Of a DNA stretch of 64,000 bases, positions 8,084-50,137 are shown in pieces. The translations under genes and the position numbers were made by a program. The first letter of the stretch is position 1. The number at the start of each line of letters is the position of its first letter. Below the pieces are notes generated by a model that worked only from the letters and a program-made list of their open reading frames with translations, was not told where the DNA came from and made no database searches. Origin of the DNA: Candidatus Doudnabacteria bacterium RIFCSPHIGHO2_12_FULL_48_16 (GTDB lineage Bacteria > Patescibacteriota > Doudnabacteria > UBA920 > O2-02-FULL-48-8); contig MFEY01000007.1 of assembly GCA_001780035.1 (NCBI GenBank), positions 198,343 to 262,342 on the forward strand, in the 5' to 3' direction.

Positions 8084-8178
8084 ATAATGATTAGTTGGAT
8101 AATAATTAAAATTTATACTGATTCCCGTTGATTATAATCTATATTATATATTAAGCTATGTCCAATTTCTAACGGGAT
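8084..8178. mobile_element. MITE-like element with 12-bp terminal inverted repeats CCCGTTAGAAAT / ATTTCTAACGGG, AT-rich 71-bp core
   Basis: Perfect terminal inverted repeats (TIRs) immediately upstream of the HU start codon. Core shares TACTG..ATTCCCGTTGA with the element at 50044. Confidence 0.45.
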
Positions 8179-8250
8179 TCAAAGGCTTGGGTTGAAACTT
8201 TACTAATTAAGCGATCCGAATGACCCGAATTAACATCCGAATTATCCGAA

Positions 8251-10377
8251 TCAACTGCAGCTATTCGTGATATTCGGATGCATTCGTAGATTAGGATCGC
8301 GATTGAGTCTGATATAAATATACCAAAATATTGACCAAATGACAAAGCCATCCCATAAGGTAAACGGCAGGTCATTGCCGGTGCGCGGCAGGGTCGCGCC
8401 AAGCACCTGGCCGCTAGCACCCAGGCTGGCGATTTTTATCTGATTCAATTCTCCCGGAGTGGCCAGCAGGCTCCAGGCAAATGTCCCGTCCGGTAATAAA
8501 TTATAGGATTGATTTTTGGGCGCATCTTCGTATTCGAGAGATGAAATAATTTGGCCGGCCGGGTCAATAACCGTGATTGTTTCTTTGCCGGAATTATTGA
8601 GGGCCAGATTGCTTTCGGATTTAAGCAGGACATAATAATGTCCCGGCTCAATTATCGGCGAATGAAAAGTATATTTACTCGCCGCATCCGCCACCTGCCA
8701 ACCATGCAGATCCAACGGCTGGCTGCCAGAATTAAACAGCTCAATAAATTCCTGCCCGCTAGTGGAAGGCTCCGGATACAGTTCGCTGATCAAGAGGCCG
8801 GAACTAACCGGCTCTAGCTCTTCGGGTCTTGCCTCATTGACCGCATTCGGCGTGGGGTCAATCCAAATCCATTGGCCGGCAAGGAGCGCATAGCTCTGGC
8901 CCTCTTTGCCCGCTTCAAAAGTGACCGAATCAATTAAGATTTTATTTTCATTAAACAGCCGCACGGTTTCGCTGCCGGTATTATCGAGTGCAAATCTACC
9001 GGCCGGAATCATGATCACGGCCAATCCCCCGGGATATACGATCGGGCTTTGGATCTTGTAAGCGGAAGATCTGATCGCCTGATCGGATGCGCCATCATCC
9101 AAAATCCAGTTGTGCAGATAAACCGGCTCTGACCCGGTGTTTAAGATCTCGACCCATTCTCCCCCGCTGTCGCTGCCGGCCGGATTCGGAAAAATTTCAT
9201 TAAACTTTATTTGCAATTGCGCCGGCGCGGTGACGGGCGGCGCAACTGCGCCGGCGCCAAACTGATTGGCCGCGCCTTTGGTAACAAAGCTCGTCCAGGC
9301 AAAAGATCCGTCGTCCTGCCGAGCGTAAGTTTCATTTTCTTTGGCTGGTTCTTTGTATGCAACCAATCTTAATTCTTGCTTGTCCGGCCACATCAGGCGC
9401 AAAGTGTCGCCGCCCGTATTGTTGAGTGCGAAACTGCCATCCAGCAGATCGATCACCAAAAATGATTTCGCGGCAACCTTGGTTTGGCCGGGAATGACAT
9501 AAGCGGAAGAACCGACGAGACCTGATTGGCCGGCATCATCCAAAATCCAATCGCTTAAGTCAACTTCGGAACTTGAATCATTGTATAATTCCACCCATTC
9601 TTCTCCGCCATCCGGGCCTTCGGGGTTGGGCGCAAATTCCGAAACCACAATGGCGCTGGAATAAAGCGGCGGCGCGGGAGCGGAGGTGCCGCTCGTTTCT
9701 GCCGGAGGAGTTGCCTCGCTGGCAGGCAACCCGTCCGCAGGCGGGTCAGCTGGCGGCGGCTCCGGCGCGAGCGGCAAGGCCGGCGTTGGGGTCGCCGACG
9801 AATTGCGCGGATGGCCGCTGACTTCCATAAAATCCGTGGAATTATTGTTTGTATCTAGGCCATTGCCCGCCTCCCCGCCAGGCAAGCGTTCAAGTGATTG
9901 GTTCGTGCCTGGGTTAGCGGCAAATGCTGACCCTTCGACAAATGCATTGGTGGCCTGGCCCCAGGCCACGCTGTCGATGATGGCCCCGGTATCATTGGCG
10001 CCATTGCGCAGGGCGACCGCATTGTCATCGGCAATGCTGCCGGTGGTGCTAGTGTCCGGCGCGGCTGAAATATCCGTAAAACTTGAATTGGCCCAAAGAT
10101 AAAAGCCGTGCGCTTTGACAATGGTTGAAGCGGTCCAGGATTTGAGCGCTGTGTCGGTCGTACCGGTTTTGGTCCGCTTGACCAGGCGATAACCTTTGAG
10201 GTCAATATCGGATGAAGTCGGATTGTAAATTTCCACGAAGTCGTTGGTCGTTTTGCCGCTGCCGCCGGTAATCTGGATTTGGCTGATGACCAGGTGGTCT
10301 GTGTCGGCGCGAGCCAGAAACGGCAAAAAGATTAAAACCCCTATAATAAAACAGATTTTTCTTGGTATTGGTTTCAT
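8251..10377 (-). CDS. Lamin-tail-domain (LTD) repeat surface protein with C-terminal LPxTG-type sorting signal
   Basis: Signal peptide MKPIPRKICFIIGVLIFLPFLARA. At least three LTD units (EFAPNPEGPDGGEEWVELYN..DLS.W.LDD; NEIFPNPAGSDSGGEWVEILN; SELYPEPSTSGQEFIELFN). Pro-rich linker. C-terminal LPRTG, then hydrophobic stretch, then RLNR. Confidence 0.7.
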   Translation of the reverse strand: MKPIPRKICFIIGVLIFLPFLARADTDHLVISQIQITGGSGKTTNDFVEIYNPTSSDIDLKGYRLVKRTKTGTTDTALKSWTASTIVKAHGFYLWANSSFTDISAAPDTSTTGSIADDNAVALRNGANDTGAIIDSVAWGQATNAFVEGSAFAANPGTNQSLERLPGGEAGNGLDTNNNSTDFMEVSGHPRNSSATPTPALPLAPEPPPADPPADGLPASEATPPAETSGTSAPAPPLYSSAIVVSEFAPNPEGPDGGEEWVELYNDSSSEVDLSDWILDDAGQSGLVGSSAYVIPGQTKVAAKSFLVIDLLDGSFALNNTGGDTLRLMWPDKQELRLVAYKEPAKENETYARQDDGSFAWTSFVTKGAANQFGAGAVAPPVTAPAQLQIKFNEIFPNPAGSDSGGEWVEILNTGSEPVYLHNWILDDGASDQAIRSSAYKIQSPIVYPGGLAVIMIPAGRFALDNTGSETVRLFNENKILIDSVTFEAGKEGQSYALLAGQWIWIDPTPNAVNEARPEELEPVSSGLLISELYPEPSTSGQEFIELFNSGSQPLDLHGWQVADAASKYTFHSPIIEPGHYYVLLKSESNLALNNSGKETITVIDPAGQIISSLEYEDAPKNQSYNLLPDGTFAWSLLATPGELNQIKIASLGASGQVLGATLPRTGNDLPFTLWDGFVIWSIFWYIYIRLNRDPNLRMHPNITNSCS

Positions 10378-10478
10378 GATGCTAATAACTTAGCATAAAA
10401 ATAGGATAATATTAATATATAATGACTTAAATATTAAGGCAAATATATCAACAATGACCGATCGGTCAAATATGATAT

Positions 10479-11024
10479 TTATTGCCAGTTTTCTATTTTA
10501 GCTTTCAAGATCGTGACGTTCTGGGCAATCCTCAATCGGTCGACTAAAATCTGAAATTCTTTAGGCAATAGGACGGGTCCAATCATCACGCTTTTTTGTA
10601 AATTAGTAAATCCGTTATTTAACAAAAATTTTCTCAAAAACCGCCGGTGGCGCCGCTTGTCTTCTGCAATATCAAAAACAATGACCGTGGCAAACCCATC
10701 AGTCCGCGGGGTCTTGTGTTTGGCCGCATGATTTATTAGCTGTTTCAACTCACCATCAATGGTCAATTGATAGTAAACCTTGTCGTCGGTTCGCTTTTTC
10801 GTGATCAATCCACTTTTTTGCAGACGATGTAATGCCGTTGTAATCGCCGGACCATTATACTGACCGCGCAATTTCTGCCGCAACCATTTATGATGATAGG
10901 CTCGACCCATCAGAGCGGCTGAGTAATACTCGTCAAATCCTTGAAAAAACTCCAATAATTTTCTCGGTAAGGACTCAATAGCTTTATTGACAGCTTTTTT
11001 AATTTTTTTACCTTTTTTAACCAT
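10479..11024 (-). CDS. Winged-helix regulator with C-terminal Cas2/PaaX_C-like domain
   Basis: N-terminal wHTH (LHRLQKSGLITKKRTDDKVYYQLTIDGE). C-terminus TVIVFDIAEDKRRHRRFLRKFLLNNGFTNLQKSVMIGPV resembles the Cas2 beta-alpha core (VIVYDI..DKRR..GxRVQxSV). Confidence 0.45.
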   Translation of the reverse strand: MVKKGKKIKKAVNKAIESLPRKLLEFFQGFDEYYSAALMGRAYHHKWLRQKLRGQYNGPAITTALHRLQKSGLITKKRTDDKVYYQLTIDGELKQLINHAAKHKTPRTDGFATVIVFDIAEDKRRHRRFLRKFLLNNGFTNLQKSVMIGPVLLPKEFQILVDRLRIAQNVTILKAKIENWQ

Positions 11025-11103
11025 AATTTTATTATATCATAAAGTGTCGATCGGTCTAAAGTGATATAAATTTAAATTAAACAAATCGGTTTAGATGGCT
11101 CGT

Positions 11104-11568
11104 TTACTCTTTTTTATGGCTTTCTTTTTCCTGTTCTTCCCCGGCTTTTTTGACCTCTTCCGGCAGTTGCTTATACAAAGTGCCCAGCACCCCGTTGACG
11201 AACTTGCCGCTGCTTTCCCCGCCGAAGGTCTTGCCCAGCTCCACCGCCTCGTTGATGGCAACCTTCGGCGGCACCTCATGAGCAAACAAGAGTTCGTAAA
11301 TTCCCAAGCGCAAGATACTACGGTCGATCACCGTAATCTGCTGCAGGGGCCATTCCGGCGCGGTTTTGACGATGATCTGGTCAATTTCCGGGATATGTTT
11401 TTCCACCCCGGCAATCAGATCAAATATAAAAGCGGGATCGTCGAGGCCCGGCGCAAACTGCTTGACATTGTGTTCGGTGATCGCAAGCAGCGAATTTTGC
11501 CGGTCATTGAAATCCCACTCATACAGACTTTGCATCGCGACCGTGCGCGAAAGGTGTCTGTTAGCCAT
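11104..11568 (-). CDS. nusB: Transcription antitermination factor NusB
   Basis: RSILRLGIYELLF...VAINEAVELGKTFGGESSGKFVNGVLG, a classic NusB motif. Confidence 0.9.
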   Translation of the reverse strand: MANRHLSRTVAMQSLYEWDFNDRQNSLLAITEHNVKQFAPGLDDPAFIFDLIAGVEKHIPEIDQIIVKTAPEWPLQQITVIDRSILRLGIYELLFAHEVPPKVAINEAVELGKTFGGESSGKFVNGVLGTLYKQLPEEVKKAGEEQEKESHKKE

Positions 11569-11571
11569 AAT

Positions 11572-11766
11572 TTATTTTTTTACTTTAGCGGTTTTGACCT
11601 TTACCACTTGCCGGCCCTTGTAGAAGCCGCAATTGGAGCAGGCTTCGTGGGGGCGGGACGGGAAATTGCAATTTTTGCAAACAGACAGGTTGGAAGCTTT
11701 GAGATGATCGTGGGAACGTCTCTGGTTTCGTCCGGACCGAGTCTTGTGTTTCTTTGGAACAGCCAT
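11572..11766 (-). CDS. rpmF: 50S ribosomal protein L32
   Basis: MAVPKKHKTRSGRNQRRSH... with a Cys cluster (CKNC...CSNC). Confidence 0.85.
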   Translation of the reverse strand: MAVPKKHKTRSGRNQRRSHDHLKASNLSVCKNCNFPSRPHEACSNCGFYKGRQVVKVKTAKVKK

Positions 11767-12041
11767 GGGATGATTTAGTGATTAGTGATTAGTAGCTATG
11801 AATTTATAACATAAAAATTTGATTTGGTCAACGCCCGATTTAACCTTTATCTGCCTCCGAGCGCCCTTCCCCAACATCTGCCGGCGAACAGGAGATCTGA
11901 CAAGCCTTGCGGCTTTTCAGATTCGCCGGCAGATGACAGGGGGGAACATACGATTGATCGCAGGTTCCCCGAATCGCATCGAGCCTTGCGGCCCTGCGAT
12001 TACTCAATGTCCAAGCACGGACATTTAACCCCCCTTATTGA

Positions 12042-12215
12042 CTAGCTATGCGGATCTGTGTGGGCCTCGAACAATCTGTGCGCGGGACGATCGTGGATCC
12101 AATCATCCGCCTTGTGGCCTTCCAGGAGAAGGACCAGGGCAAAGCCTAAAATCACGACCTCGGTAACCAGAATCCCCAGAACGACCAAGACAACGACGCC
12201 GAAGATCTTGCCCAT
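12042..12215 (-). CDS. Island gene: 57-aa single-TM hydrophobic peptide
   Basis: MGKIFGVVVLVVLGILVTEVVILGFALVLLLEGHKADDWIHDRPAHRLFEAHTDPHS. GGAGG RBS 4 nt upstream. Below the 60-aa track threshold. Confidence 0.5.
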   Translation of the reverse strand: MGKIFGVVVLVVLGILVTEVVILGFALVLLLEGHKADDWIHDRPAHRLFEAHTDPHS

Positions 12216-12236
12216 GCAGCCTCCGTTGAGAAACAG

Positions 12237-12296
12237 CTACCACTCGCGACGGATCGCGAGGCTGACCATTCCGATGAACGCCCCGCCGATCGCCAT
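12237..12296 (-). CDS. Island gene: 19-aa hydrophobic micropeptide (type I toxin-like?)
   Basis: MAIGGAFIGMVSLAIRREW, 21 nt upstream of the 57-aa peptide gene. No clear SD. Confidence 0.25.
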   Translation of the reverse strand: MAIGGAFIGMVSLAIRREW

Positions 12297-12438
12297 GATG
12301 ATCGGCGTCTGAGTGAACGATGCCAGTGGGATTGTAACCCAATACTGCTTGCATTCGCAAGCAATATTCCCACTTCTCCGGGTTTGAAAAAATTTCAAAT
12401 CCAGGGAAGTGGAGAGGAATTGAAAGCGGATATTCTTG

Positions 12439-12664
12439 CTAATCAATTCCTCTGTGGTTTCGCGAGTTATCGCGGACAGCCATCTGCCATCCGCGCCGTT
12501 CCTTGCGACTGCGGGGCTGAGCGGCACCGCCCTCATAGAGGTCGTAGCCGCGCCAGTAGGCTCGCCAGCGCTCGTGGCCGAAGAATTCCCCCCAGGCTTT
12601 CGGGCAGCCGAGCCGATGAAACGGCCACCATCGACGCTGGGGCCGGCAGGCTTCACAGATCATC
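12439..12664 (-). CDS. Island gene: 75-aa Cys/Trp/Arg-rich small protein
   Basis: MICEACRPQRRWWPFHRLGCPKAWGEFFGHERW... Its ATG overlaps the TGA of the upstream membrane gene (ATGA coupling). Confidence 0.4.
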
Positions 12665-13019
12665 GCCAGCTCCGACTTTTGACGGTCAGCCCCAGACCGG
12701 CACGCAGTTGGTTGAGGTAGTATCGCACGGCCGAGCGATACATCCAGCGCGGCCGTTGCATGATCCCCCAGACAATCATGGGGATCAGCACCGGCGCGAG
12801 CAGCAGCTCCACCAATCTGGCCGGTCGGGACCAGTATCGGGAAGCAATCTCGTGCTCGCCCATCCGGACGACGTAGTGGTGAAACGCAATCGCGCCCCAC
12901 ACGCCGAGGCCGATCAACGGCTGTTCGATGGCCAGGTAGTGGAGAATAGCCACCGCGCGGGAGACGACGAGCGAGACGAGCCCACCGATCATGCCGTAAA
13001 GCTCAATCACTGAGTCCAT
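12660..13019 (-). CDS. Island gene: 119-aa three-TM membrane protein
   Basis: MDSVIELYGMIGGLVSLVVSRAVAILHYLAIEQPLIGLGVWGAIAFHHYVV...LLAPVLIPMIVWGIM. AGAAAGAGG RBS. The track ORF 12660..13280 is N-terminally over-extended by Arg-rich translation. Confidence 0.5.
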   Translation of the reverse strand: MDSVIELYGMIGGLVSLVVSRAVAILHYLAIEQPLIGLGVWGAIAFHHYVVRMGEHEIASRYWSRPARLVELLLAPVLIPMIVWGIMQRPRWMYRSAVRYYLNQLRAGLGLTVKSRSWR

Positions 13020-13060
13020 GTATCGCCTCTTTCTTGAATAGCAACATGCCGAATCCCCCT

Positions 13061-13309
13061 TCAGTAATGACGAAATCCGGGCGGCGGCTGGTTGAGCGCC
13101 CTGATAACCCGAAGCAGCACGCGGCAGATCAATATGAGGATGATCAGGTCGTAGACCGCGTAAAGCGCCAGCACGAGGACGGGCACGCCGAGCAGAAAAT
13201 AACCGACGCGCTCGTGGCCGGTCGCGAACGGGATGATCACGATCCCGAGCAGGATCGCGGCGACGAAGCGATACTTCCACGACGGATGAAGTTCAAACTG
13301 CACACGCAT
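13061..13309 (-). CDS. Island gene: 82-aa two-TM membrane protein
   Basis: MRVQFELHPSWKYRFVAAILLGIVIIPFATGHERVGYFLLGVPVLVLALYAVYDLIILILICRVL. ATG 1 nt past the stop of the upstream ORF. Confidence 0.5.
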   Translation of the reverse strand: MRVQFELHPSWKYRFVAAILLGIVIIPFATGHERVGYFLLGVPVLVLALYAVYDLIILILICRVLLRVIRALNQPPPGFRHY

Positions 13310-13496
13310 GGGCCACCTCTTTGAGGAAGTAGTAATCCTTCTGGTTGACCAGGCCGCGCTTCTGGACCTCGGCCAGCCAGACCAGGTAGGTCGGCTACCG
13401 GTCGATGGGCAGCCGGACTTCGATCTCGTCCAGCAACTGCTGGCTCCACGACCCGAGACTGTCGGGCGCGAGCGGCAGATTGCGCCAGGTTGTCAT
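13293..13496 (-). pseudogene. Island gene interrupted by an in-frame TAG (33 aa + 33 aa)
   Basis: MTTWRNLPLAPDSLGSWSQQLLDEIEVRLPIDR-TAG-PTYLVWLAEVQKRGLVNQKDYYFLKEVAHACAV. GTGTGAGGTG RBS context. Coherent peptide on both sides of the amber codon. Confidence 0.35.
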
Positions 13497-13602
13497 ATCT
13501 ATTCACCTCACACAAAAAAAGAACCAACAATTGCAGCCACAATGTAAGGAATTAACCGCGAAAGTTCAAAGACTAAATTCTAGTGTTCTCTTTAACTGTC
13601 GG

Positions 13603-13630
13603 TTAACGCCCTAGCATTCTAGAAACAAAA
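13603..13630. repeat. Island R motif (single copy) TTAACGCCCTAGCATTCTAGAAACAA
   Basis: Matches the TAACGCCCnAGnATTnTnGAAACAA consensus shared with 14256-14282 and 14933-14960. About 108 nt upstream of the next island gene's ATG. Confidence 0.5.
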
Positions 13631-24571: not shown

Positions 24572-25813
24572 TTACCACAGCATGGACTTGACTTCGGCCA
24601 CCAGATTGGCCAGATCGACAGTCCGCTGTTCTTTCTCGCGCAAATTTTTCAAAGTCACTTTCCGCGCCGAAGCTTCATCGGGCCCGAAAATCACGGCGAC
24701 CTGCATATTTTTCGCCTGCGCGTATTTGAACTGCTTGTCGAGTTTCGAGGGTTCGTAGACGACCTCGGCATCAATCCCGGCATTTCGCAAATTGGTGGTC
24801 ATATTCAAATAATCGGCAGTTAAGTTTTCATCCAGATTAAACACAATTACCTCAGCCGCGGTCTGGGGGGCGACCACATCCATTTCTTGAATCGCCGCAA
24901 ACAGCCGGTCCAGGCCAATCGAGCCGCCGACCGCCGGCATTTTGACGCCCGTAGTTTTTTCCAGCAAGTCATCATACCGCCCGCCGCCGCAGACGCTGCC
25001 AAATTCCGGTTTGGCCACCAAGACAAATTCAAACACTATACCCGTGTAATAAACCAAACCTCTCATTAAATATTTATCAAATTCCATCTGCTCCACCCCG
25101 AGGCCGGATAACAGTTGGGTCATCTGGTTAACATAGCCCTTGCTCGATTTCTCCATCAGTTGGGAATATTTTTTGAGAATATTACGATCAAATCCTTGCT
25201 CAACCAAACTCTCAACAACTTTTTCTTCGCCAATTTTATCCAGTTTATCCAATGTCCGCATAAAATTCCCAATATCCTTTTTGACAATATTGAGCTTGGT
25301 TAATACCTGGTCCACCAGTTTGCGGTCATTGAATTTTACCTTCACCTCGCCAATTTCCAATGATTTAAAAGCTGCATCAAAAGTCGCAATCACTTCGGCG
25401 TCCGCAATTATTGAATCCGAGCCGATAATATCCACGTCGCATTGCATAAACTCGCGGTAGCGGCCCTTCTGGGGTTTGTCTGCGCGCCACACCGGCGCCA
25501 TCTGATAACGCTTAAACGGTTTGGGCAGTTCGGGATAACTGGCCACGAATCTCGCCATTGGGACGGTCAGATCATAGCGCATAGCGACTTTGCGGCCACC
25601 CTGGTCTTCGAATTTATACATCAACTGCTCACCCTCCTCCCCGTATTTGCCGCCCAGGAGTTCATAATATTCCAGCGCCGGCGTGTCCATGGGGGCAAAG
25701 CCAAACCGCTCGAAGACTTCGGAAATCTTCTGCATAATTTTTTTGCGCGCCAGCTGCTCCTGGGGCAGATAGTCGCGAAAACCTTTTAAAATTTGGGGGA
25801 TCTCTTTTGCCAT
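24572..25813 (-). CDS. hisS: Histidine--tRNA ligase
   Basis: Class II motifs: RYDLTVPMARF, GRYREFMQCDVDIIG, C-terminal anticodon-binding domain. Confidence 0.9.
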   Translation of the reverse strand: MAKEIPQILKGFRDYLPQEQLARKKIMQKISEVFERFGFAPMDTPALEYYELLGGKYGEEGEQLMYKFEDQGGRKVAMRYDLTVPMARFVASYPELPKPFKRYQMAPVWRADKPQKGRYREFMQCDVDIIGSDSIIADAEVIATFDAAFKSLEIGEVKVKFNDRKLVDQVLTKLNIVKKDIGNFMRTLDKLDKIGEEKVVESLVEQGFDRNILKKYSQLMEKSSKGYVNQMTQLLSGLGVEQMEFDKYLMRGLVYYTGIVFEFVLVAKPEFGSVCGGGRYDDLLEKTTGVKMPAVGGSIGLDRLFAAIQEMDVVAPQTAAEVIVFNLDENLTADYLNMTTNLRNAGIDAEVVYEPSKLDKQFKYAQAKNMQVAVIFGPDEASARKVTLKNLREKEQRTVDLANLVAEVKSMLW

Positions 25814-38568: not shown

Positions 38569-39849
38569 TTACCGGCCTAATCTTTTTTTGACTTCATCGA
38601 TGATCCGGTCGATCACAAACAGCTCCTGCATACCTGACCGCACGTCGCGCAAAATCACGGTGCCTTCCCGGGCTTCCTTGTGGCCGATAATCAGAGCGAT
38701 ACTGGCTTTGCTCGATTCCGCCAGCTTAAGCTGCATTTTGATCGAACTGGGACCGGAAAATTCGGAAGCGATGATATCATGATTCCACAGTTCGGTAAAA
38801 AGTTTCAACGATTTTTTCGCAGCCAGCTCCCCCAACGGCACCAGAAACACTTCGGCCCGATGTTTGGCGGCAAATTTAATCTGGGCCAATTCCAAGGCTT
38901 TAAGGATGACTTCCTGAGTGGAATCAAATCCCAAGGCCGGACAGGCCGCTCCGCCCAACGATTGGATCAGCTCGTCGGAATGACCCCCGGTCCCGAGCAC
39001 GAAATCCTGATCGGCGATCCGGCAACGCAGTTCAAACACGGTCCGACGATTCCAAGGCCGGCCGATGACATGCGGATTGAGGTTATAGCTGATAGCCAGC
39101 TCATCCAGACCTTCCAGCACCGAAATCAGCTGGGCTCGGCAAGTCTCGCATAAATAGTCGACGATCACGGGCGCGTCGGTTGTTGTTGTGGAGCAGGCTA
39201 AATTTTTGCAGGCAAAAATCTGCAGCGGGTTGCCGGCCTCGAGGTAGATCAAACAATTTTCACATAAATCGTATTTCTTGTCTTTAAAATAAATTTTGAG
39301 CTGGTCCTGATAATTGGGCTGGCATTCCACGCAGCCGACATTGTTGACTTCCAGAGAAAAATTGCTTAAACCGACTTCGGTAAACAACCGCAGTAGTAAA
39401 TTGAGGAGTTGGGCATCGCTGACCGGCGCCACGGGTCCGAAAATCTGAAAGCCAAATTCCCGATTTTGCTTTAACTCATTTTTTTCATCCCAGCAGGCGA
39501 CCAGCATATCATAATACCATTTCACCACCTTTATCGGTTCCTGTTCCTGCAGGGGCAGATATAGCCGGGCAAGGCCAAAAATGCCGGCCGGAGCGGCAGC
39601 AATGCTGGGGCCTTTGGTTTGCAGAAAATTCAGCAACTGGCAGCCGACTTTGGACCAAAAGCCGAACAGCCGCGAGTCCTCGAACATCGGCGTCTGCACC
39701 TGACTAAAACCAAAAGTGCGCGAAAGCGCCACCACTTTCTCCCAAAATCCTTCCCAAGACATAAACTGGTCCTGACCCAGGTCAAAACTGCCGGGCAATC
39801 GATGAGGGGCTTTTTCAACATTTGGAGTTGGTTTTTTGGGGCGGCCCAT
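38569..39849 (-). CDS. Divergent histidyl-tRNA synthetase paralog with zinc-ribbon insertion
   Basis: HisRS-like N-terminus (ALSRTFGFSQVQTPMFEDSRLF), relic motif 2 (NREFGFQIFG), Cys cluster CVEC..C..C...C..C, and HisRS-type anticodon-binding domain (ALIIGHKEAREGTVILRDVRSG). Confidence 0.55.
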   Translation of the reverse strand: MGRPKKPTPNVEKAPHRLPGSFDLGQDQFMSWEGFWEKVVALSRTFGFSQVQTPMFEDSRLFGFWSKVGCQLLNFLQTKGPSIAAAPAGIFGLARLYLPLQEQEPIKVVKWYYDMLVACWDEKNELKQNREFGFQIFGPVAPVSDAQLLNLLLRLFTEVGLSNFSLEVNNVGCVECQPNYQDQLKIYFKDKKYDLCENCLIYLEAGNPLQIFACKNLACSTTTTDAPVIVDYLCETCRAQLISVLEGLDELAISYNLNPHVIGRPWNRRTVFELRCRIADQDFVLGTGGHSDELIQSLGGAACPALGFDSTQEVILKALELAQIKFAAKHRAEVFLVPLGELAAKKSLKLFTELWNHDIIASEFSGPSSIKMQLKLAESSKASIALIIGHKEAREGTVILRDVRSGMQELFVIDRIIDEVKKRLGR

Positions 39850-39938
39850 AATAAAAAGTAAAAAGTTAGAAATAAAAAGTCAAAACTTCCAGTTTATTTT
39901 ACTTTTGTTTTACTTTTTACTTTTTCCCTTTTACTTTG

Positions 39939-40583: not shown

Positions 40584-40660
40584 TGGTGGATGATAGTGGA
40601 CTCGAACCACTGACCTCGTCGATGTGAACGACGCGCTCTAACCAGCTGAGCTAATCATCC
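40584..40660 (-). tRNA. tRNA-Val (anticodon CAC)
   Basis: Reverse complement GGATGATTAGCTCAGCTGGTTAGAGCGCGTCGTTCACATCGACGAGGTCAGTGGTTCGAGTCCACTATCATCCACCA. Anticodon loop TTCACAT. Confidence 0.85.
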
Positions 40661-43746: not shown

Positions 43747-43754
43747 AAAACTCT

Positions 43755-44767: not shown

Positions 44768-45124
44768 CTACCAGAGCGCGGTCAAAAATCGGATCGGCTT
44801 TCGAACCAGCCGGCTGATCCGATCCCAGAAATGTCCGCCGGAGCGGATTAGACGGTTGGAGCTGAATGCCCATCTCGGCGGGGGCGGCGGTATCGGCACA
44901 TATTGATAACCGCGACCCGCAGGCAGGCTAGCCACCGGATCATCCTCTTGATCCGAAATTCGGGCGCCCGCCATAAACGAGATCAGGCCGAGTCCAACTC
45001 CGACCATGGCCAACAACAAACCGGCCACGACCTGCACCTGCAGACAGAAATAGATCGCCGAGAGCGCCAACCCAAGCAGGAGGGCGCAAAAACAGACAGC
45101 TCGGATAAAATCCTTATGCCTCAT
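44768..45124 (-). CDS. Possible two-TM membrane protein with Pro-rich tail (GC-rich region)
   Basis: MRHKDFIRAVCFCALLLGLALSAIYF...VAGLLLAMVGVGLGLISFMAGA...PIPPPPPRW. Weak support. Confidence 0.3.
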   Translation of the reverse strand: MRHKDFIRAVCFCALLLGLALSAIYFCLQVQVVAGLLLAMVGVGLGLISFMAGARISDQEDDPVASLPAGRGYQYVPIPPPPPRWAFSSNRLIRSGGHFWDRISRLVRKPIRFLTALW

Positions 45125-45431
45125 CGAAACCCTCCAGTCTCGATTGGAAAATGACGTTACAAAAAAATGCACCACGGGCTAATTCCCACAATGCACCTTA
45201 ACGTCCTTGACCCTACCTATAAGCGCAAGACCTATGCGGAAAACCGCACCAGCCTTAACTTGTGGTTACTCGGAAACAATAGGAGGGATGCTGTTTCCTT
45301 TCGCCGCTTGCTAGGTAGGATCAAAGACGCTAGCTATAAAATATTGTAAAATCAATACTGTATAATAGCTTAACGCTAATTAGCCAGCATGACAAGCAAT
45401 CTTAGCAAAAACCGCAAGTTTTGTCAACACT

Positions 45432-46529
45432 ATGGCCGCTAACCCGATCGCCAATAAAATTTTTGGAAACGGCTTTAACCTGATCCCGCAGATCGGCCCG
45501 GTGAGCCTCCTGCGGCTGTTTAAGCACTTCGGCGGATTTGAACCGGCCTGGTTCGCTGCACAAGCGGAATATTTGCACGCTGGCATTTCACAAAAACTGG
45601 CTCAGATCATCCGTGACAAAAAACCGCAGATCAATCCGGAGTTGGCGTTCGCGGAATTAACCCGCCGGCAGATTGAAGTGTTGACGATTGGCGAAGTCGG
45701 TTATCCCCCGCTGCTTAAGGAAGTCGCGGCCGCGCCGCCGGTCCTCTATGTTCGCGGCAACCAACAGATCCTCACTGCAGCGAGCGTGGCCGTGGTCGGC
45801 ACCCGCAAAATAACCAGCTACGGCCAGCAAGCCTGCCAAGAGCTAATCACCGGCCTGGTTCAAAACAACCTCAGCATTGTCTCGGGGCTGGCATTCGGCG
45901 TCGATGCCCAGGCGCTCAGCGTTTGCGTAGCGGAAGGCGGCATTCCGGTGGCCGTGCTGGCCTCGGATTTGGACAACAGCAGTATTTCCCCGCGCAGTAA
46001 TTTCCAGCTGGCGCAAAAAGTCGTGGAGCGCGGCTGCCTGGTCTCGGAATATCCGCTCGGTATGGTGGTGCAGAAACAAAATTTTCCCATCCGCAACCGG
46101 ATCATCTCCGCCTTGAGTTTAGGCACGCTGGTGATCGAAGCTGACATGGAAAGCGGCTCGCTGATTACCGCCAACTTTGCCCTGGAGCAAAATCGGGAGG
46201 TCTTTGCCGTGCCCGGCTCGATTTTTTCCCAGAGCAGCCGCGGCACCAATGCTCTGATCAAAAAAGGAGCCAAACTGGTGGCACGAGTTAATGATATTCT
46301 GGAAGAATTTGACATCACGAGCGCCAACCCGGCACCGATTGATCTCTCCGCCACGCCCCAAGAGCAAACCGTGCTCGATGTTTTGGCCAAAGAACCCATC
46401 CATATTGATGATTTAATCAAACTCCTCAAGCTTCGACCGGCAGATCTTAATTCCTTGTTAACCATGCTGGAAATGAAAGGCCGGGTAAAAAATTTAGGCG
46501 GCGGCAAGTATGCCAAAGTGAGGGGGTAA
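45432..46529 (+). CDS. dprA: DNA processing protein DprA (Smf)
   Basis: Rossmann-like LAFGVDAQALSV...AVPGSIFSQSSRGTNALIKKGAKLV. Confidence 0.85.
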   Translation: MAANPIANKIFGNGFNLIPQIGPVSLLRLFKHFGGFEPAWFAAQAEYLHAGISQKLAQIIRDKKPQINPELAFAELTRRQIEVLTIGEVGYPPLLKEVAAAPPVLYVRGNQQILTAASVAVVGTRKITSYGQQACQELITGLVQNNLSIVSGLAFGVDAQALSVCVAEGGIPVAVLASDLDNSSISPRSNFQLAQKVVERGCLVSEYPLGMVVQKQNFPIRNRIISALSLGTLVIEADMESGSLITANFALEQNREVFAVPGSIFSQSSRGTNALIKKGAKLVARVNDILEEFDITSANPAPIDLSATPQEQTVLDVLAKEPIHIDDLIKLLKLRPADLNSLLTMLEMKGRVKNLGGGKYAKVRG

Positions 46530-46567
46530 ACTTGACAAAAGGAAATTAAATCGTAAAGATTAATGGC

Positions 46568-48820
46568 ATGACTAAGTCACTGGTAATAGTGGAAAGCCCG
46601 ACCAAGGCCAAAACCATCACGCGATTCCTCGACGGCAAATACTTCGTTGCGGCGTCGTTCGGTCATATCCGCGATTTGCCCGCGAGCAAAATGGGCATTG
46701 ATATTGAACATGATTTCGAACCCACCTATGTCGTGCCGCCCAAAGCCAAAAAGCGCGTAGCGGAACTCAAAAAACTGGCCAAGGATGCGCCCGAAGTGAT
46801 TCTGGCAACGGACGAAGACCGCGAGGGCGAAGCCATTGCCTGGCATTTAATTTCAGCTTTGGGGTTGGAAAAGAAAACCATCAAGCGAATCGCCTTTCAT
46901 GAAATCACCAAAACCGCGATTGCTGAAGCCCTGGAACACCCCCGCCAACTCGATCTCCATCTGGTCGATGCCCAACAGGCGCGCCGCATCCTGGATCGGC
47001 TGGTCGGCTATGAACTCTCGCCATTTCTTTGGAAAAAAGTCCGACGCGGCCTGTCCGCTGGCCGGGTGCAATCCGTGGCCGTCCGCTTAATCGTGGAACG
47101 CGAACGGGAAATCCAAAAATTTCAACCGGTGGAGTATTGGAGCATTGAAGCGACTTTCAACAAAGACGGCCAGTTTATCGGCAAGCTCGCCAAAATTGAC
47201 GGTCAGGCCTTGGGCCAGATCGGCATCAAGGACGAAGCGCGGGCCAAGAAAATTTTGGCTGATCTAGCCAATCGCCCAGCCGAAATAATTGAAGTTACGA
47301 AAAAAAAAACCCGCCGCAATCCAGCCGCCCCCTTCATCACTTCGACGATGCAGCAGGAAGCCGCGCGCAAATTGGGCTTTAGCGCCAAGCAGACCATGAT
47401 GTATGCCCAACAATTATATGAAGGCGTGGAAATCGGCGAAGAGGGCGCCACGGGCCTGATCACATATATGAGAACCGATTCGGTCAACTTGTCGGACTTT
47501 GCCCTGGAATCGGCCAAACAAGCCATTACGGAAAAATACGGCAAGGATTATCTGCTCCCGGAACCCCGCAAATACGCCTCTAAGTCTAAAAACGCCCAAG
47601 AAGCCCACGAAGCGATCCGGCCGACCGACTTAAATCGGGATCCTGAAAGCGTCAAAGCCCACCTCGATCGCAATCAATATCGCCTCTACGATTTAATCTG
47701 GAAGCGCACCATCGCCACCCAGATGCCGGAAGCGGTGTTTGACCAAACCAGTGTGGATACCGCGATTAAGGGGGATAAGCAATATATTTTCCGTTCCACC
47801 GGCCAAGTGATCAAATTCGACGGCTTTATGAAAGTTTATTTGGAAGGCACGGATGAAGAAACCGCGGAAGAACAGGAAGGTCTGTTGCCCGAACTGGCCA
47901 AGGGCGACAAGCCCAAGGTCCTGAAAATTCTCCCCAAACAACACTTCACCCAGCCCCCGCCGCGGTTTAGCGACGCGTCGTTGATCAAAGCCCTGGAAGA
48001 ACAAGGCATCGGCCGGCCGTCGACCTATGCCCCGACCATCTCCACCATCCAAGATCGCGGCTACGTCGATAAAATTGAGAAAAAATTCCATCCGACCGAT
48101 ATCGGTTTTATCGTCAATGACATTTTGGTCGAACATTTCCCCAAAGTCGTTGACTTGCAGTTTACAGCGCAGATGGAAGAACAACTCGACCAGATTGCCG
48201 AAGGCGAAAAAGAATGGGTGCCGGTGATCAAGGAATTTTACGGCCCGTTCCACGACAACCTAAAAACCAAAGAAAAAGAAGTCGAGCGACACGTCGAACT
48301 GTTGGATGAAAAATGCCCGGACTGCGGCAACCCGCTGCAGGTCAAATTCGGCCGGTTCGGCAAATTCATTTGCTGCTCCACCTACCCGGAATGCAAATAT
48401 ACCCGGCCCTTACCGGAGGAACAAAAGATCATCGATGACAACGCCGGCGTAATCTGCGAGAAATGCGGTAAGCCGATGGTCGTCAAATTCGGCCGGTTCG
48501 GCTCATTCCTCGGCTGCTCCGGCTACCCGGAATGCAAAAACATCAAGAAGATTGTCAAAAGCACCGGCGTGCCCTGCCCGGTTTGCGGCGAAGGCGAAAT
48601 GGTGGAACGTAAATCCAAACGCGGCATTTTCTACTCCTGCTCCAAATATCCGCAGTGTAAATTCCTTATGAACGGCAAACCGACCGGGGAAAAATGCCCA
48701 AAATCCGGCGACCTCTTAATGGAAATGAAAAACGGCGTGATCAAATGCTCGAACAAAGAATGCGATTTCGAAAAAGAAATCAAGGCGGAAGCCGAAACCG
48801 TGGAAACAATTAAAACTTAA
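46568..48820 (+). CDS. topA: DNA topoisomerase I
   Basis: TOPRIM VIVESPTKAKTI. Active-site region. Three C-terminal C4 zinc ribbons (CPDCG...C; CEKCG...C; CPVCG...C). Confidence 0.95.
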   Translation: MTKSLVIVESPTKAKTITRFLDGKYFVAASFGHIRDLPASKMGIDIEHDFEPTYVVPPKAKKRVAELKKLAKDAPEVILATDEDREGEAIAWHLISALGLEKKTIKRIAFHEITKTAIAEALEHPRQLDLHLVDAQQARRILDRLVGYELSPFLWKKVRRGLSAGRVQSVAVRLIVEREREIQKFQPVEYWSIEATFNKDGQFIGKLAKIDGQALGQIGIKDEARAKKILADLANRPAEIIEVTKKKTRRNPAAPFITSTMQQEAARKLGFSAKQTMMYAQQLYEGVEIGEEGATGLITYMRTDSVNLSDFALESAKQAITEKYGKDYLLPEPRKYASKSKNAQEAHEAIRPTDLNRDPESVKAHLDRNQYRLYDLIWKRTIATQMPEAVFDQTSVDTAIKGDKQYIFRSTGQVIKFDGFMKVYLEGTDEETAEEQEGLLPELAKGDKPKVLKILPKQHFTQPPPRFSDASLIKALEEQGIGRPSTYAPTISTIQDRGYVDKIEKKFHPTDIGFIVNDILVEHFPKVVDLQFTAQMEEQLDQIAEGEKEWVPVIKEFYGPFHDNLKTKEKEVERHVELLDEKCPDCGNPLQVKFGRFGKFICCSTYPECKYTRPLPEEQKIIDDNAGVICEKCGKPMVVKFGRFGSFLGCSGYPECKNIKKIVKSTGVPCPVCGEGEMVERKSKRGIFYSCSKYPQCKFLMNGKPTGEKCPKSGDLLMEMKNGVIKCSNKECDFEKEIKAEAETVETIKT

Positions 48821-49071
48821 AAATTATTAACTTAAAAAATTTATGCGCGAAAATGCCTATGGTCGGGAGAACTCAAAACAAACATTAATTGAAGTCCAAC
48901 TCGCAGTTTGAAGAACTCGATAAAGCCGCCTAATACGCGGCTTTTGGTTTCTTTGGAAATTCGACCCTGTCCGAGCGACAAAAACTCGGTTAGATATGTC
49001 ATTGTCGCGAGTCCGTCGAATTTCCGACTTCTTTCCGCCGCTTTCTTCTAGAAGAAAGCGGCAAGAATAAA

Positions 49072-50070
49072 TTAATTATTTAATTTCGGGAAATGCTTGT
49101 GAATTATCCGCTCCACGTCCGCGGCAGTTTTGGCCTGTTCCATCAATTCCGTCCGGATTTCTTTGGCCCCGTCAAAACCGGCCACATAAGCCTTGTAGTG
49201 TTTCTTCATCACGTCAAAACTTTTAACGCCTGCAAAAGTTTGTTCAAACAGATAAGTGTGTTCAATCATCACCCGAAGTTTTTCCTCGGTTGATGGCTGA
49301 TGGCGGCTAAACAACCACGGATTGCCAAAGATTCCCCGGCCCAGCATCACGCCATCGCACCCGGTGTCTTTTACCTTTTGTTCAGCTTCGGCCAGGGACA
49401 TGACGTCGCCGTTGCCCAGGATCAATGGCCCTTTGATTCCGGATTCTTGATTCCTGATTCTCATTATTTCCGGCACAAGCTCCCAGTGCGCCGGCACCCG
49501 GGACATTTCTTTGACGGTGCGCAAATGCACAATCAAAGCCGCCGGCTTGGTGGCCAAAATCTGAGGGATCCAAGTCTCGATCTCATTGGTCTTGAATCCA
49601 ATCCGCGTTTTCACGGAAACCGGTAAGCCTCCCCCGCCTTCCCTGGCTGCCAAAATTATTTCCTGAGCCAGGGCCGGGGTTTTAATCAAGGCCGAACAGG
49701 ACGCCTGATTCAGAACCTTTTTGACCGGGCAGCCCATGTTGATGTCGATCCCGTCGAATCGCATTGCTTTGAGCATTTGAGCGACTTGGTAAAAATTTTC
49801 CGGCTTGGCGCCGAAAATCTGAGCCACGATCGGCCGTTCCGCTTCAGTATATTGCAAATCAACCAGCAATTTGGGCTTGCCCGGCGAGAGCAAGCCATCG
49901 ACCGAAACAAATTCCGTCCACATCACGGGCGGTTTGCCATATTTGGCGATTATCGTGCGAAAAGCCAAATCCGTGACATCCGCCATGGGCGCCAAAGCAA
50001 AAATCGGTTTGTTCAATTGATCCCAGAATCCTTTATTCACCCCGTTAGAAATTCCGTTGCTATTTTTCAT
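49072..50070 (-). CDS. dus: tRNA-dihydrouridine synthase
   Basis: FALAPMADVTDLAFR, DINMGCPVKKV. The first about 10 codons overlap a terminal-inverted-repeat element. Confidence 0.85.
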   Translation of the reverse strand: MKNSNGISNGVNKGFWDQLNKPIFALAPMADVTDLAFRTIIAKYGKPPVMWTEFVSVDGLLSPGKPKLLVDLQYTEAERPIVAQIFGAKPENFYQVAQMLKAMRFDGIDINMGCPVKKVLNQASCSALIKTPALAQEIILAAREGGGGLPVSVKTRIGFKTNEIETWIPQILATKPAALIVHLRTVKEMSRVPAHWELVPEIMRIRNQESGIKGPLILGNGDVMSLAEAEQKVKDTGCDGVMLGRGIFGNPWLFSRHQPSTEEKLRVMIEHTYLFEQTFAGVKSFDVMKKHYKAYVAGFDGAKEIRTELMEQAKTAADVERIIHKHFPKLNN

Positions 50071-50137
50071 TAGGCTAATATTATATTCTTACTGCATTAT
50101 TCCCATTGAACATAAAAAATACTTCATTTCTAACGGG
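50044..50137. mobile_element. MITE-like element with 13-bp terminal inverted repeats CCCCGTTAGAAAT / ATTTCTAACGGGG, 68-bp core; overlaps the dus start
   Basis: Left TIR lies within the first about 9 codons of dus (encoding GISNGV). Right TIR is in the 5' UTR. Core related to the 8084 element. Confidence 0.45.

What the first reader, a model, noticed from the sequence alone, without database searches (positions are those of the whole stretch)
8084..50137. Two related MITE-like elements with CCCCGTTAGAAAT terminal inverted repeats; one contributes the first codons of dus
The first element (8084-8178) sits just upstream of the HU start. The second (50044-50137) has 13-bp perfect TIRs and an AT-rich core sharing TACTG..ATTCCCGTTGA with the first.

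In the second element the left TIR lies inside the dus reading frame (codons for GISNGV) and the right TIR is in the 5' UTR. The element therefore appears to have inserted at the 5' end of dus and now supplies its start codon, N-terminus, and probably its promoter.

A third stem with the related sequence CCCTGTTAGAAGT occurs at 5625.
Basis: partly seen in the sequence, partly recalled or inferred. Interest (0 to 1): 0.6.

Follow-up and report, generated by a model that had tools for sequence, protein, structure and literature searches.

The report
Small transposons inserted in start codons
Three copies of a roughly 60-105 bp non-coding mobile element sit in this Doudnabacteria genome, two of them exactly inside the start codons of the HU and dus genes, which the insertion itself rebuilds; the same element ends occur in over a hundred genomes from several phyla.

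Summary
CCCGTTAGAAAT occurs four times exactly, as two inverted pairs (0 expected), and the stem at 5625 is a variant of the same sequence.

- E1, 8073-8177, TTCA/TTCA.
- E2, 50040-50138, TTCA/TCCA.
- E3, 5625-5687, TCAA/TCAA.

Syntenic relatives lack E1 and E2. The same repeat pair occurs in at least 118 loci from Patescibacteria, Desulfobacterota, Planctomycetota, Omnitrophota and others. The 4-bp duplication is perfect in 75 of 126 elements (13.5 expected).

The upstream ATG at 50070 is an annotation artefact.

What the element does supply is one base. Insertion fell between N and TGAA of the start codon, so the element's terminal purine plus the duplicated TGAA rebuilds RTGAA (GTG for dus, ATG for HU). 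E3 rebuilds a -35 box in the same way. 55 of 123 elements elsewhere sit like this on intact housekeeping genes.

No parent transposase was found. The repeat start (CCC) and the T..A duplication resemble piggyBac/IS1380. A fixed insertion orientation remains unexplained.

The parts
7798..8073 (-). HU (hup) gene, 91 aa. The A of its ATG (8073) is the terminal base of E1 and the TG (8072-8071) belongs to the duplicated target.
   Evidence: ORF. Pfam Bac_DNA_binding. Homologues are 74-88% identical.
8069..8072 (-). E1 target-site duplication, gene-side copy (TGAA on the - strand).
   Evidence: Sequence. Register test.
8073..8085 (-). E1 gene-proximal 13-bp terminal inverted repeat (ATTTCTAACGGGA on the - strand).
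8086..8164 (-). E1 core, 79 nt and AT-rich. It contains an internal half-site TCAACGGGAAT (8131..8121) and promoter-like matches TAGAAA-17-TATAAT and TGGACA-17-TAGATT.
   Evidence: The core is 66% identical to L075a, which sits at a different gene.
8165..8177 (-). E1 gene-distal 13-bp terminal inverted repeat (TCCCGTTAGAAAT on the - strand).
8178..8182 (-). E1 relic target copy TGAA preceded by T, i.e. a relic TTG-AA start. It opens an 8-codon upstream ORF.
49072..50040 (-). dus (tRNA-dihydrouridine synthase), 322 aa from GTG 50040..50038. The G is the terminal base of E2.
50036..50039 (-). E2 target-site duplication, gene-side copy (TGAA on the - strand).
50040..50052 (-). E2 gene-proximal 13-bp terminal inverted repeat (ATTTCTAACGGGG on the - strand).
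50053..50125 (-). E2 core, 73 nt. It contains the internal half-site TCAATGGGAAT (50109..50099) and the spurious in-frame ATG at 50070..50068 used by the public gene model.
50126..50138 (-). E2 gene-distal 13-bp terminal inverted repeat.
50139..50143 (-). E2 relic target copy TGGA (1 mismatch to TGAA) preceded by A, i.e. the relic ATG of dus. It opens a 20-codon upstream ORF.
50152..50157 (-). -10-like TAGAAT, 8 nt upstream of the relic ATG. This is the likely native (leaderless-type) dus promoter. The terminator of the upstream gene lies at 50192..50166.
   Evidence: The same TAGAAT-8 nt-ATG arrangement is seen in relative L121. Family-wide peak.
5621..5624 (-). E3 target-site duplication copy (TTGA on the - strand). 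It forms the first four bases of the -35 hexamer TTGACA.
5625..5687 (.). E3: variant 13-bp repeats CCCTGTTAGAAGT/ACTTCTAACAGGG around a 37-nt core of two GC hairpins.
   Evidence: Fold of -46.8 kcal/mol, z = -9. Same variant repeats in L133-L138.
5688..5691 (-). E3 second target-site duplication copy (TTGA on the - strand).
5596..5624 (-). Perfect TTGACA-17-TATAAT promoter whose -35 box was split and then rebuilt by the E3 insertion.

Best explanation
E1, E2 and E3 are non-autonomous DNA transposons (MITEs) of one family.

**Defining features.** The family has 13-bp perfect terminal inverted repeats, 5'-YCCCGTTAGAAAT (E3 has the variant CCCTGTTAGAAGT). The core is non-coding and variable, from 2 to about 115 nt. 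Each insertion duplicates 4 bp of a target that reads R|TRAA.

**Shown: how insertion leaves the genes intact.**
- E1 and E2 inserted between the first and second base of the HU and dus start codons (N|TGAA).
- The 4 bp are duplicated and the element ends in a purine, so the downstream junction reads ...CGGG-R-TGAA and rebuilds an RTG start codon.
- The ORFs are therefore untouched. dus changed from ATG to GTG; HU probably changed from TTG to ATG.
- The old start remains as a relic upstream of the element.
- E3 did the same to a -35 hexamer (TTGA|CA).

**Inferred: expression.**
- The genes are still transcribed from their native, largely leaderless-type promoters.
- Those promoters now produce a leader of about 100 nt that begins with a short relic ORF and folds into the repeat hairpin.
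- Translation re-starts at the rebuilt RTG. Translation of the relic ORF would help by opening the hairpin; in some family members that ORF stops at the UAA of the proximal arm, 4 nt before the start.

**Inferred: start-codon copies are survivors.** Copies elsewhere in these gene-dense genomes would be lost.

**Inferred from end structure only: the enzyme.** The mobilising enzyme is probably a DDE transposase of the piggyBac/IS1380 type. It is encoded elsewhere or is no longer present.
For: **Repeats**
- The repeats are exact and non-random.

**Target duplication**
- Window elements: E1 TTCA/TTCA, E3 TCAA/TCAA, E2 TTCA/TCCA.
- In 126 elements the 4 nt outside a 13-bp repeat are a perfect direct repeat in 75.
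- Random pairing of left and right flanks gives 13.5 +/- 3.4, with a maximum of 30 in 2000 permutations.
- Other registers give at most 41 matches.
- The terminal bases are complementary in 120 of 126 elements.
- The duplicated 4-mers vary but co-vary between the two sides (TGAA, TAAA, TGGA, TCAA, CGTG, TGGG, TATG and others). This is a real duplication, not a fixed site.

**Empty sites**
- dus: three syntenic relatives have a 41-58 bp upstream spacer and ATGAAT/ATGAAC with no element.
- HU: L128 keeps the LTD-HU gene order and reads GAGTATGAATAAGCAAGAA. L130 also has no element.

**Mobility**
- Elements with E1-like cores sit at five different genes in three Doudnabacteria species.
- L105a and L105b are 93% identical in the core, lie at two different genes, and are on the same contig whose HU lacks the element.

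**Non-autonomous**
- No transposase or recombinase was found among the 33 window ORFs scanned, out of 46 of at least 150 aa.
- No protein family recurs in the 8-kb flanks.
- No long repeat pair encloses an ORF.

**Rebuilt starts**
- 55 of 123 elements abut an ORF of at least 60 aa at R+TG.
- Nine of ten tested are intact housekeeping proteins whose Pfam domains begin at residues 1-32; the tenth had no hit.
- 36 of 55 keep a relic ATG upstream.
- -10-like boxes peak 6-14 nt before the relic ATG.
- An extreme case is L043. There the last 5 nt of the repeat plus the duplication rebuild the 5' acceptor strand of tRNA-Pro.

**Decay**
- One young copy (L105b) already has an indel in one arm. This fits a selfish element.
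Against: - No autonomous parent with these repeats was found, so the transposase family is a guess.
- Most cores are unrelated although the repeats are identical. E1 and E2 are 45% identical in the core and 24/24 in the arms; most of the 126 cores are singletons. This is unusual for a copy-and-paste MITE family.
- Insertion orientation is tied to an asymmetric target, which two identical repeats do not predict. All 17 copies of one core family share the orientation, and the internal half-site is 13:0 next to the distal arm.
- The cross-genome conservation of the repeats is partly by ascertainment, because the scan required exact arms.
- E1 is fixed and identical in all five contigs shown, out of 23 read, of this species. 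No current mobility is shown in this genome.
- All statements about expression are inference; there are no transcript data.
Confidence: 0.8

Rival explanations
1. One reading: E2 inserted at the 5' end of dus and now supplies its start codon, first ~10-20 residues and promoter.
For: - The longest ORF starts at ATG 50070 inside the element and reads through the proximal arm.
- The public protein model P0001 uses that start.
- The upstream gene's terminator lies only about 25 nt before the element.
Against: - 19 of the 20 retrieved Dus sequences (17 of the 19 homologues) contain the (M)N/R/S-x-(G)FW motif encoded right after the arm. Most start there; five are called with extra upstream residues.
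- Relatives lacking the element have the same codons preceded by ATG.
- A TAGAAT box lies 8 nt upstream of the relic ATG, outside the element, and mirrors relative L121.
- No oriented promoter signal appears inside 54 start-codon elements.
Confidence: 0.07
2. A conserved cis-regulatory RNA. The two arms form a leader hairpin that sequesters the region just before the start codon. The internal AACGGGA half-site acts as an alternative pairing partner, giving a translational switch spread across phyla.
For: - The arm abuts the start codon in 55 of 123 cases.
- The hairpins are stable, -22.6 and -31.3 kcal/mol with z of -2.3 and -3.9.
- The internal half-site always lies next to the distal arm (13:0).
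- Symmetric arm variants keep the pairing (E3; L060).
Against: - The target duplications and empty sites show insertion rather than vertical conservation.
- 68 of 123 elements are not at gene starts. They lie in either direction relative to neighbouring genes, and some have only a 2-nt loop.
- The cores are unrelated.
- There is no Rfam match even at E <= 1.
- Symmetric arm changes are equally expected for transposon subfamilies.
Confidence: 0.05
3. Domesticated elements. They arrived by transposition, but the arms are now kept by host-level selection, for example as paired binding sites for a regulator or as mobile 5'-leader cassettes for leaderless genes.
For: - The arms are 24/24 identical where the cores are at chance-level identity.
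- E1 is fixed and identical in all five contigs shown of 23 read.
- Orientation is consistent relative to the gene.
- SD-like GGAG lies next to the proximal arm in 10 of 54 elements, against 0 of 54 in the mirror position.
Against: - L105b shows arm decay in a young copy.
- No common function links the target genes: HU, dus, ClpP, FtsH, RuvB, Fmt, MurC-like and others.
- The orthologous genes of close relatives do without the element.
- Arm identity elsewhere is by ascertainment.
Confidence: 0.08
4. Invertible promoter switches (invertons). A site-specific recombinase flips the AT-rich core between the inverted repeats to switch HU or dus on and off.
For: - 12-14-bp inverted repeats flank a 73-79-nt AT-rich segment with promoter-like hexamers directly upstream of genes.
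Against: - All five contigs shown of this species carry E1 in the same orientation.
- No recombinase is present in the window, and none recurs near the 118 loci.
- Direct 4-bp duplications are not a feature of invertons.
- Many family members have GC-hairpin cores or 2-nt loops with no promoter.
Confidence: 0.02
5. REP/REPIN-type palindromes moved by a RAYT (HUH) transposase, or an IS200/IS605-type derivative.
For: - Hairpin-forming pairs of about 100 bp are scattered in intergenic DNA.
- Insertion orientation is fixed relative to a short target, as with HUH enzymes.
Against: - HUH transposition makes no target duplication and uses a fixed target. Here the flanking 4-mers vary and co-vary.
- REP sequences are species-specific, whereas these arms are shared across phyla.
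- No HUH or other gene family recurs nearby.
Confidence: 0.03

Closest known systems
Correia elements (Neisseria MITEs)
   Same: - About 100-150 bp, non-coding, with terminal inverted repeats that fold into a hairpin in transcripts.
- Found predominantly just upstream of genes.
- Can carry promoter-like sequences and alter expression (review PMC10969869).
   Different: - Correia elements are confined to Neisseria.
- They have about 26-bp repeats and duplicate TA (own knowledge).
- Here the repeats are 13 bp, the duplication is 4 bp (T-R-A-A) and the insertion point is inside the start codon.
- The same repeats occur in several phyla.
piggyBac superfamily / bacterial IS1380 family
   Same: - piggyBac elements duplicate 4 bp: TTAA, with variants TAAA, TCAA, CTAA and TATG.
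- Their repeats begin CCCTT, CCCTC or CCCAT (PMC10813416).
- piggyBac is paired with prokaryotic IS1380-like transposases (PMC5718144).
- Here the repeats begin (Y)CCCG and the duplications are TGAA, TAAA, TCAA and TTAA.
   Different: - No transposase was found, so homology is untested.
- The preferred target is asymmetric (R|TRAA), not the palindrome TTAA.
- The similarity of the canonical piggyBac repeat CCCTAGAAAGATA to CCCGTTAGAAAT is recalled from memory and may be chance.
Rickettsia palindromic elements (RPEs)
   Same: - Small palindromic mobile elements that persist inside genes because the insertion is compatible with the gene product (PMC10969869).
   Different: - RPEs insert in frame and are translated.
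- Here the ORF is left intact because the start codon is regenerated.
- Only one case (L017) is an in-frame 99-nt insertion.
REP / REPIN sequences with RAYT transposases
   Same: - Paired inverted short repeats form hairpins of about 100 nt in intergenic DNA.
   Different: - REPINs have no target duplication, are species-specific and come with a RAYT gene.
- None of these holds here.
Invertible promoters (fimS-type invertons)
   Same: - Short inverted repeats bracket an AT-rich promoter-like segment next to a gene.
   Different: - No recombinase and no second orientation were seen.
- Flanking direct duplications are present.

Membership tests
MITE (miniature inverted-repeat transposable element) | Terminal inverted repeats | tested here: met
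   13/13 perfect in E1, E2 and E3. Terminal bases are complementary in 120 of 126 elements.
MITE (miniature inverted-repeat transposable element) | Target-site duplication of constant length | tested here: met
   A 4-bp duplication is perfect in 75 of 126 elements, against 13.5 expected. In the window: TTCA/TTCA, TTCA/TCCA, TCAA/TCAA.
MITE (miniature inverted-repeat transposable element) | Small and without coding capacity | tested here: met
   63-105 bp in the window. Elsewhere the exact 12-mer arm pairs span 47-128 bp, and copies with only a 2-nt loop between the arms also exist. They contain only short relic ORFs.
MITE (miniature inverted-repeat transposable element) | Several copies at non-orthologous sites, and empty sites in relatives | tested here: met
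   Three copies in 64 kb. The same core occurs at 5 genes in 3 species. Empty dus and HU sites are seen.
MITE (miniature inverted-repeat transposable element) | An autonomous parent element with the same repeats | tested here: inconclusive
   None was found in the window or in about 0.9 Mb of held loci. Whole genomes could not be searched for repeat pairs 1-3 kb apart.
piggyBac / IS1380-derived element | Repeats start with CC(C); 4-5-bp duplication, TTAA-like | tested here: met
   The sequence shows (Y)CCCG ends and T-R-A-A duplications. The family features are taken from PMC10813416 and from own knowledge of ISfinder for IS1380.
piggyBac / IS1380-derived element | Mobilised by a piggyBac/IS1380-type DDE transposase bounded by the same repeats | not testable with these tools
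   No transposase was found.
Correia element | TA duplication, ~26-bp repeats, Neisseria | tested here: not met
   The duplication is 4 bp, the repeats are 13 bp, and the hosts are Patescibacteria and others.
REP/REPIN | No target duplication; species-specific sequence; linked RAYT gene | tested here: not met
   A duplication is present. The arms are shared across phyla. No gene recurs nearby.
Integron attC site | 5'-RYYYAAC ... GTTRRRY-3' order of the core sites | tested here: not met
   On either strand the element reads 5'-GTTAGAA ... TTCTAAC-3', the opposite order.
Inverton | Both orientations of the segment occur in a population; a recombinase is nearby | tested here: not met
   The five contigs shown (of 23 read) are identical in orientation. 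No recombinase is in the window. Read-level data were not available.
Any Rfam RNA family | Covariance-model match | tested here: not met
   Only tRNAs reach the gathering score. Nothing credible appears at E <= 1 over the three elements.

The most novel reading that the evidence does not exclude
The family may not be a passive survivor at gene starts. It may be targeted, in a fixed orientation, to the first bases of transcription units: position +2 of leaderless genes, and the promoter or 5' ends of tRNA genes. Its ends would then be 'designed' so that terminal purine + TGAA rebuilds the start codon. On this reading it is a cross-phylum, piggyBac-like mobile 5'-leader cassette. It would convert leaderless genes of ultra-small CPR (Patescibacteria) genomes into hairpin-leadered ones, with the repeats retained for a host or element function.
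Probability: 0.15. Interest if true: 0.7.

Novelty: new member of a known kind. Interest (0 to 1): 0.5.

Why it matters
**Genome annotation.** The elements make gene callers over-extend ORFs, as with the public dus model. They also change start codons (ATG to GTG) and hide native promoters about 100 nt upstream.

**Biology.**
- Candidate Phyla Radiation genomes are usually regarded as poor in mobile DNA.
- This family shares identical 13-bp ends with Desulfobacterota, Planctomycetota and Omnitrophota.
- It persists inside the start codons of essential genes (HU, ClpP, FtsH, RuvB, Fmt).
- It therefore gives a natural experiment on how such organisms initiate translation after a leaderless gene acquires a structured leader.
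- It also gives a marker for horizontal exchange between co-occurring phyla.

**Open points.** The piggyBac-like end structure and the orientation-specific asymmetric target are concrete leads towards an undescribed prokaryotic transposase.

Tried and rejected
**Searches that found nothing**
- Rfam at gathering and E-value thresholds: only tRNAs and noise.
- Full-text literature search for the 12-mer and for MITEs in Patescibacteria: nothing relevant.
- Search for an autonomous copy: repeat pairs 400-4000 bp apart enclosing an ORF, all-against-all clustering of 614 flanking ORFs and Pfam on 33 of the 46 window ORFs of at least 150 aa. No transposase or recombinase.
- Viral contigs: one hit in 2.9 million contigs, so phage carriage is not the main route.

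**Signals tested and not supported**
- Promoter inside the element directed at the gene: TAGAAA-(16-18)-TAnnnT occurs 10 times towards the gene and 5 times away from it. Strong -10 boxes are not enriched on the sense strand (71 against 100).
- Reading-frame bias of element length: 23:13:19, not notable.
- Association of TAAA/TGAA duplications with stop codons of upstream genes: only 11 of 123.

**Alternative models rejected**
- A 5-bp duplication with 12-bp repeats: fits worse (41 against 75 perfect).
- attC, REP, inverton and tyrosine-recombinase core-site readings: rejected for the reasons in the membership table.

**Population check**
- No strain-level presence/absence polymorphism of E1 was seen in the five HU-encoding contigs shown of 23 read.

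Full report
**1. Observation**

CCCGTTAGAAAT occurs four times exactly in the window, against none in 100 shuffles. The copies form two inverted pairs: 8074-8085/8165-8176 and 50041-50052/50126-50137.

One further base on each side is complementary, so the inverted repeats are 13 bp. E1 spans 8073-8177 and E2 spans 50040-50138.

The stem at 5625-5637/5675-5687 (E3, CCCTGTTAGAAGT) is a perfect 13-bp inverted repeat. It differs from the C-type 13-mer at two positions, and both arms carry the same changes. No other copies exist in the window.

All neighbouring genes are on the minus strand. On that strand the proximal arms read:
- ATTTCTAACGGG-ATG-AAT-AAA for HU (7798..8073).
- ATTTCTAACGGG-GTG-AAT-AAA for dus.

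**2. Where dus starts**

The longest ORF starts at ATG 50070, inside E2. The public model of this protein (P0001, Candidatus Doudnabacteria) uses that start and so begins MKNSNGISNGVNKGFWDQ.

The closest orthologues (71-76% identity) begin MNKGFWD, MNRGFWD or MRRGFWD. This is exactly what GTG 50040 encodes.

Three syntenic relatives (Pyr_redox_2 - dus - topA) were compared:
- They have only 41-58 bp upstream of dus.
- They have no element.
- Their dus reads ATGAAT/ATGAAC AAA/CGA GGA TTT TGG.

So E2 is an insertion, dus starts at 50040, and the 10-residue extension is an annotation artefact.

**3. Target duplication and exact anatomy**

With 13-bp repeats, the four bases outside are direct repeats:
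- E1: TTCA (8069-8072) and TTCA (8178-8181).
- E3: TCAA (5621-5624) and TCAA (5688-5691).
- E2: TTCA (50036-50039) and TCCA (50139-50142), one mismatch.

On the gene strand E1 and E2 read N-TGAA-[Y...R]-TGAA-. The insertion fell between the first and second base of the start codon. The element's terminal purine then completes a new RTG. That is G for dus (ATG in relatives, GTG here) and A for HU (the relic copy reads TTGAA).

E3 split the -35 box of a perfect TTGACA-17-TATAAT promoter (5624..5596). The duplicated TTGA rebuilds it.

**4. The family elsewhere**

By depositor labels these are:

| Label | Loci |
|---|---|
| Patescibacteria (many classes) | 64 |
| Deltaproteobacteria / Thermodesulfobacteriota / Syntrophaceae | 21 |
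| Planctomycetota | 12 |
| Omnitrophota | 5 |
| Stahlbacteria | 2 |
| Gammaproteobacteria | 2 |
| Nitrospirae | 1 |
| Clostridia | 1 |
| Edwardsbacteria | 1 |
| Unclassified | 9 |

Chance expectation for this pattern in 596 Gb is below 0.1 (own arithmetic).

Flank statistics for the 126 elements:
- The 4-bp flank is a perfect direct repeat in 75. Random pairing of left and right flanks gives 13.5 +/- 3.4.
- Other registers give at most 41 matches.
- The terminal bases are C/G in 76 and T/A in 44.
- The duplicated 4-mers are mostly TGAA, TAAA, TGGA and TCAA, with a purine before them in 84%.

The E3 variant repeat occurs in 6 metagenome contigs representing 4 distinct loci. Three of the four loci have a perfect T..A duplication (TAAA/TTTA or TTGA); L136 has TAAA/TGAA, one mismatch.

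**5. Evidence for mobility**
- Elements with E1-like cores sit in front of five different genes in three Doudnabacteria species. E1 is 66% identical to L075a in the core.
- L105a and L105b are 93% identical. They lie at two genes on the same contig whose HU gene (L130) has no element.
- HU in relative L128 keeps the LTD-HU gene order and reads GAGTATGAATAAGCAAGAA without an element.
- E1 itself is fixed and identical in all five contigs shown, out of 23 read, of this species.

**6. Non-autonomy**
- Pfam on 33 of the 46 window ORFs of at least 150 aa finds only housekeeping genes. These include GroEL, Fpg, HisRS, RNR, FtsZ/FtsA, EngA, DprA, DnaJ/DnaK and ComEC; TopA is known from the Pfam annotations. 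There is no transposase.
- No protein family recurs in the 8-kb flanks of the 118 loci.
- No long repeat pair encloses an ORF.
- Only one of 2.9 million viral contigs carries an element.

**7. Start codons and other rebuilt signals**
- 55 of 123 elements abut an ORF of at least 60 aa whose RTG is made of terminal base + duplication.
- Nine of ten such ORFs are intact S30AE, Mur ligase, UvrD, CCA-adding enzyme, FtsH, ClpP, Fmt, epimerase and RuvB. Their Pfam domains begin at residues 1-32; the tenth had no hit.
- In 36 of the 55 the relic copy is still ATG.
- A -10-like hexamer peaks 6-14 nt upstream of the relic ATG, most often at 7 nt. A native SD is seen in only 5 of 54. Most targets therefore look like leaderless or short-leader genes.
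- For dus, TAGAAT lies 8 nt before the relic ATG, as in relative L121.
- In L043 the element sits inside tRNA-Pro. The last 5 nt of the repeat (CGGGG) plus the duplication CGTG rebuild the acceptor strand.
- In L017 a 99-nt insertion stays in frame.

I read these as survivorship: only insertions that regenerate the interrupted signal persist in gene-dense genomes. Targeting of transcription starts is not excluded.

**8. Expression (inference only)**
- As RNA the leaders fold into the repeat hairpin: -22.6, -31.3 and -46.8 kcal/mol, with z of -2.3, -3.9 and -9.
- The relic start opens a short ORF of 8 codons in E1 and 20 codons in E2. In 7 family members that ORF ends at the UAA of the proximal arm, 4 nt before the start, and in 2 more it overlaps the start by 4 nt.
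- This suggests hairpin opening and re-initiation.
- SD-like GGAG next to the proximal arm occurs in 10 of 54 elements, against 0 of 54 in the mirror position.
- No oriented promoter signal was found inside the elements.

**9. Unexplained**

*a. Orientation.*
- All 17 copies of the 93-nt Desulfobacterota core family have the duplication as TAAA, TGAA or TAAG in one core orientation, whatever the neighbouring genes do.
- At gene starts the internal AACGGGA half-site is always next to the distal arm (13:0).
- An asymmetric target and fixed orientation are not expected for two identical repeats.

*b. Cores.*
- Cores are mostly unrelated while repeats are identical.
- Arm decay in L105b argues against host-level constraint.

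*c. Parent.* The parent transposase is unknown.

**10. Comparison with known systems**

The elements behave like Correia elements and other bacterial MITEs (PMC10969869). They differ in repeats, duplication, host range and insertion point.

The (Y)CCC repeat start and the 4-bp T..A duplication match the hallmarks reported for piggyBac: TTAA with TAAA, TCAA and TATG variants, and CCCTT, CCCTC or CCCAT ends (PMC10813416). The prokaryotic relatives of piggyBac are IS1380-like elements (PMC5718144). This is a lead, not a tested membership.

attC, REP/RAYT, inverton and Rfam families fail defining features.

No description of this family was found in the searchable literature.

**11. Verdict**

The claim that E2 donates the N-terminus and promoter of dus is refuted, apart from one base of the start codon. 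This is a new member of a known kind, with two odd properties worth following up: orientation-specific insertion and cross-phylum identical ends.

Noticed in passing
window 50068-50070 (ATG on the - strand) and protein P0001: The public gene model for this dus starts at an ATG inside the mobile element. This adds 10 residues (MKNSNGISNG) that no orthologue has. Similar over-extensions are likely wherever this family sits at a gene start.
   Followed up: yes
window 5140-5624 (- strand): A perfect TTGACA-17-TATAAT promoter lies about 450 nt upstream of the start of the 1372-aa surface-protein ORF. This implies either a very long leader or an unannotated small gene or RNA. Rfam finds nothing there.
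   Followed up: partly
window 8200-8300; L130 1455-1480: Five or more copies of CCGAAT/ATTCGG lie in both orientations between the end of the LTD-domain gene and E1. A related motif, GCATTCGTAGATTrGkATCGC, lies upstream of HU in another Doudnabacteria genome, in the opposite orientation.
   Followed up: no
window 39852-39937: An A/T-rich block of imperfect inverted repeats built from AAAGT/ACTTT units lies next to tRNA-Val (40584-40660).
   Followed up: no
window 24572-25813 and 38569-39849: There are two ORFs with histidyl-tRNA-synthetase-like domains. The second matches weakly (1e-11) and may be a paralogue with another role.
   Followed up: no
L043 5089-5263: An element is inserted inside a tRNA-Pro gene. 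The last five bases of the repeat (CGGGG) plus the duplicated CGTG recreate the 5' acceptor strand, which pairs perfectly with the 3' strand.
   Followed up: yes
L017 5239-5333: A 99-nt insertion (element plus duplication) keeps the reading frame open from the SD-preceded relic ATG into the gene. The element could therefore be translated as a 33-residue N-terminal extension.
   Followed up: partly
L005 7778-7807; L097 7375-7405; L031 3979-4010: In L005 two arms are abutted, B-A|TTCA|T-A, which looks like a circle junction or two elements sharing a target. L097 and L031 show minimal elements whose two arms are separated by only 2 nt.
   Followed up: partly
L032 2038-2049; L080 6253-6264: Solo proximal arms lie directly before ATG with no detectable partner arm. 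They may be remnants of partial deletion.
   Followed up: no
L128 1495-1510: In a relative, the LTD-domain gene stop (TGA) overlaps the HU start (ATGA). This four-base overlap is exactly the kind of site, A|TGAA, that the element uses.
   Followed up: partly
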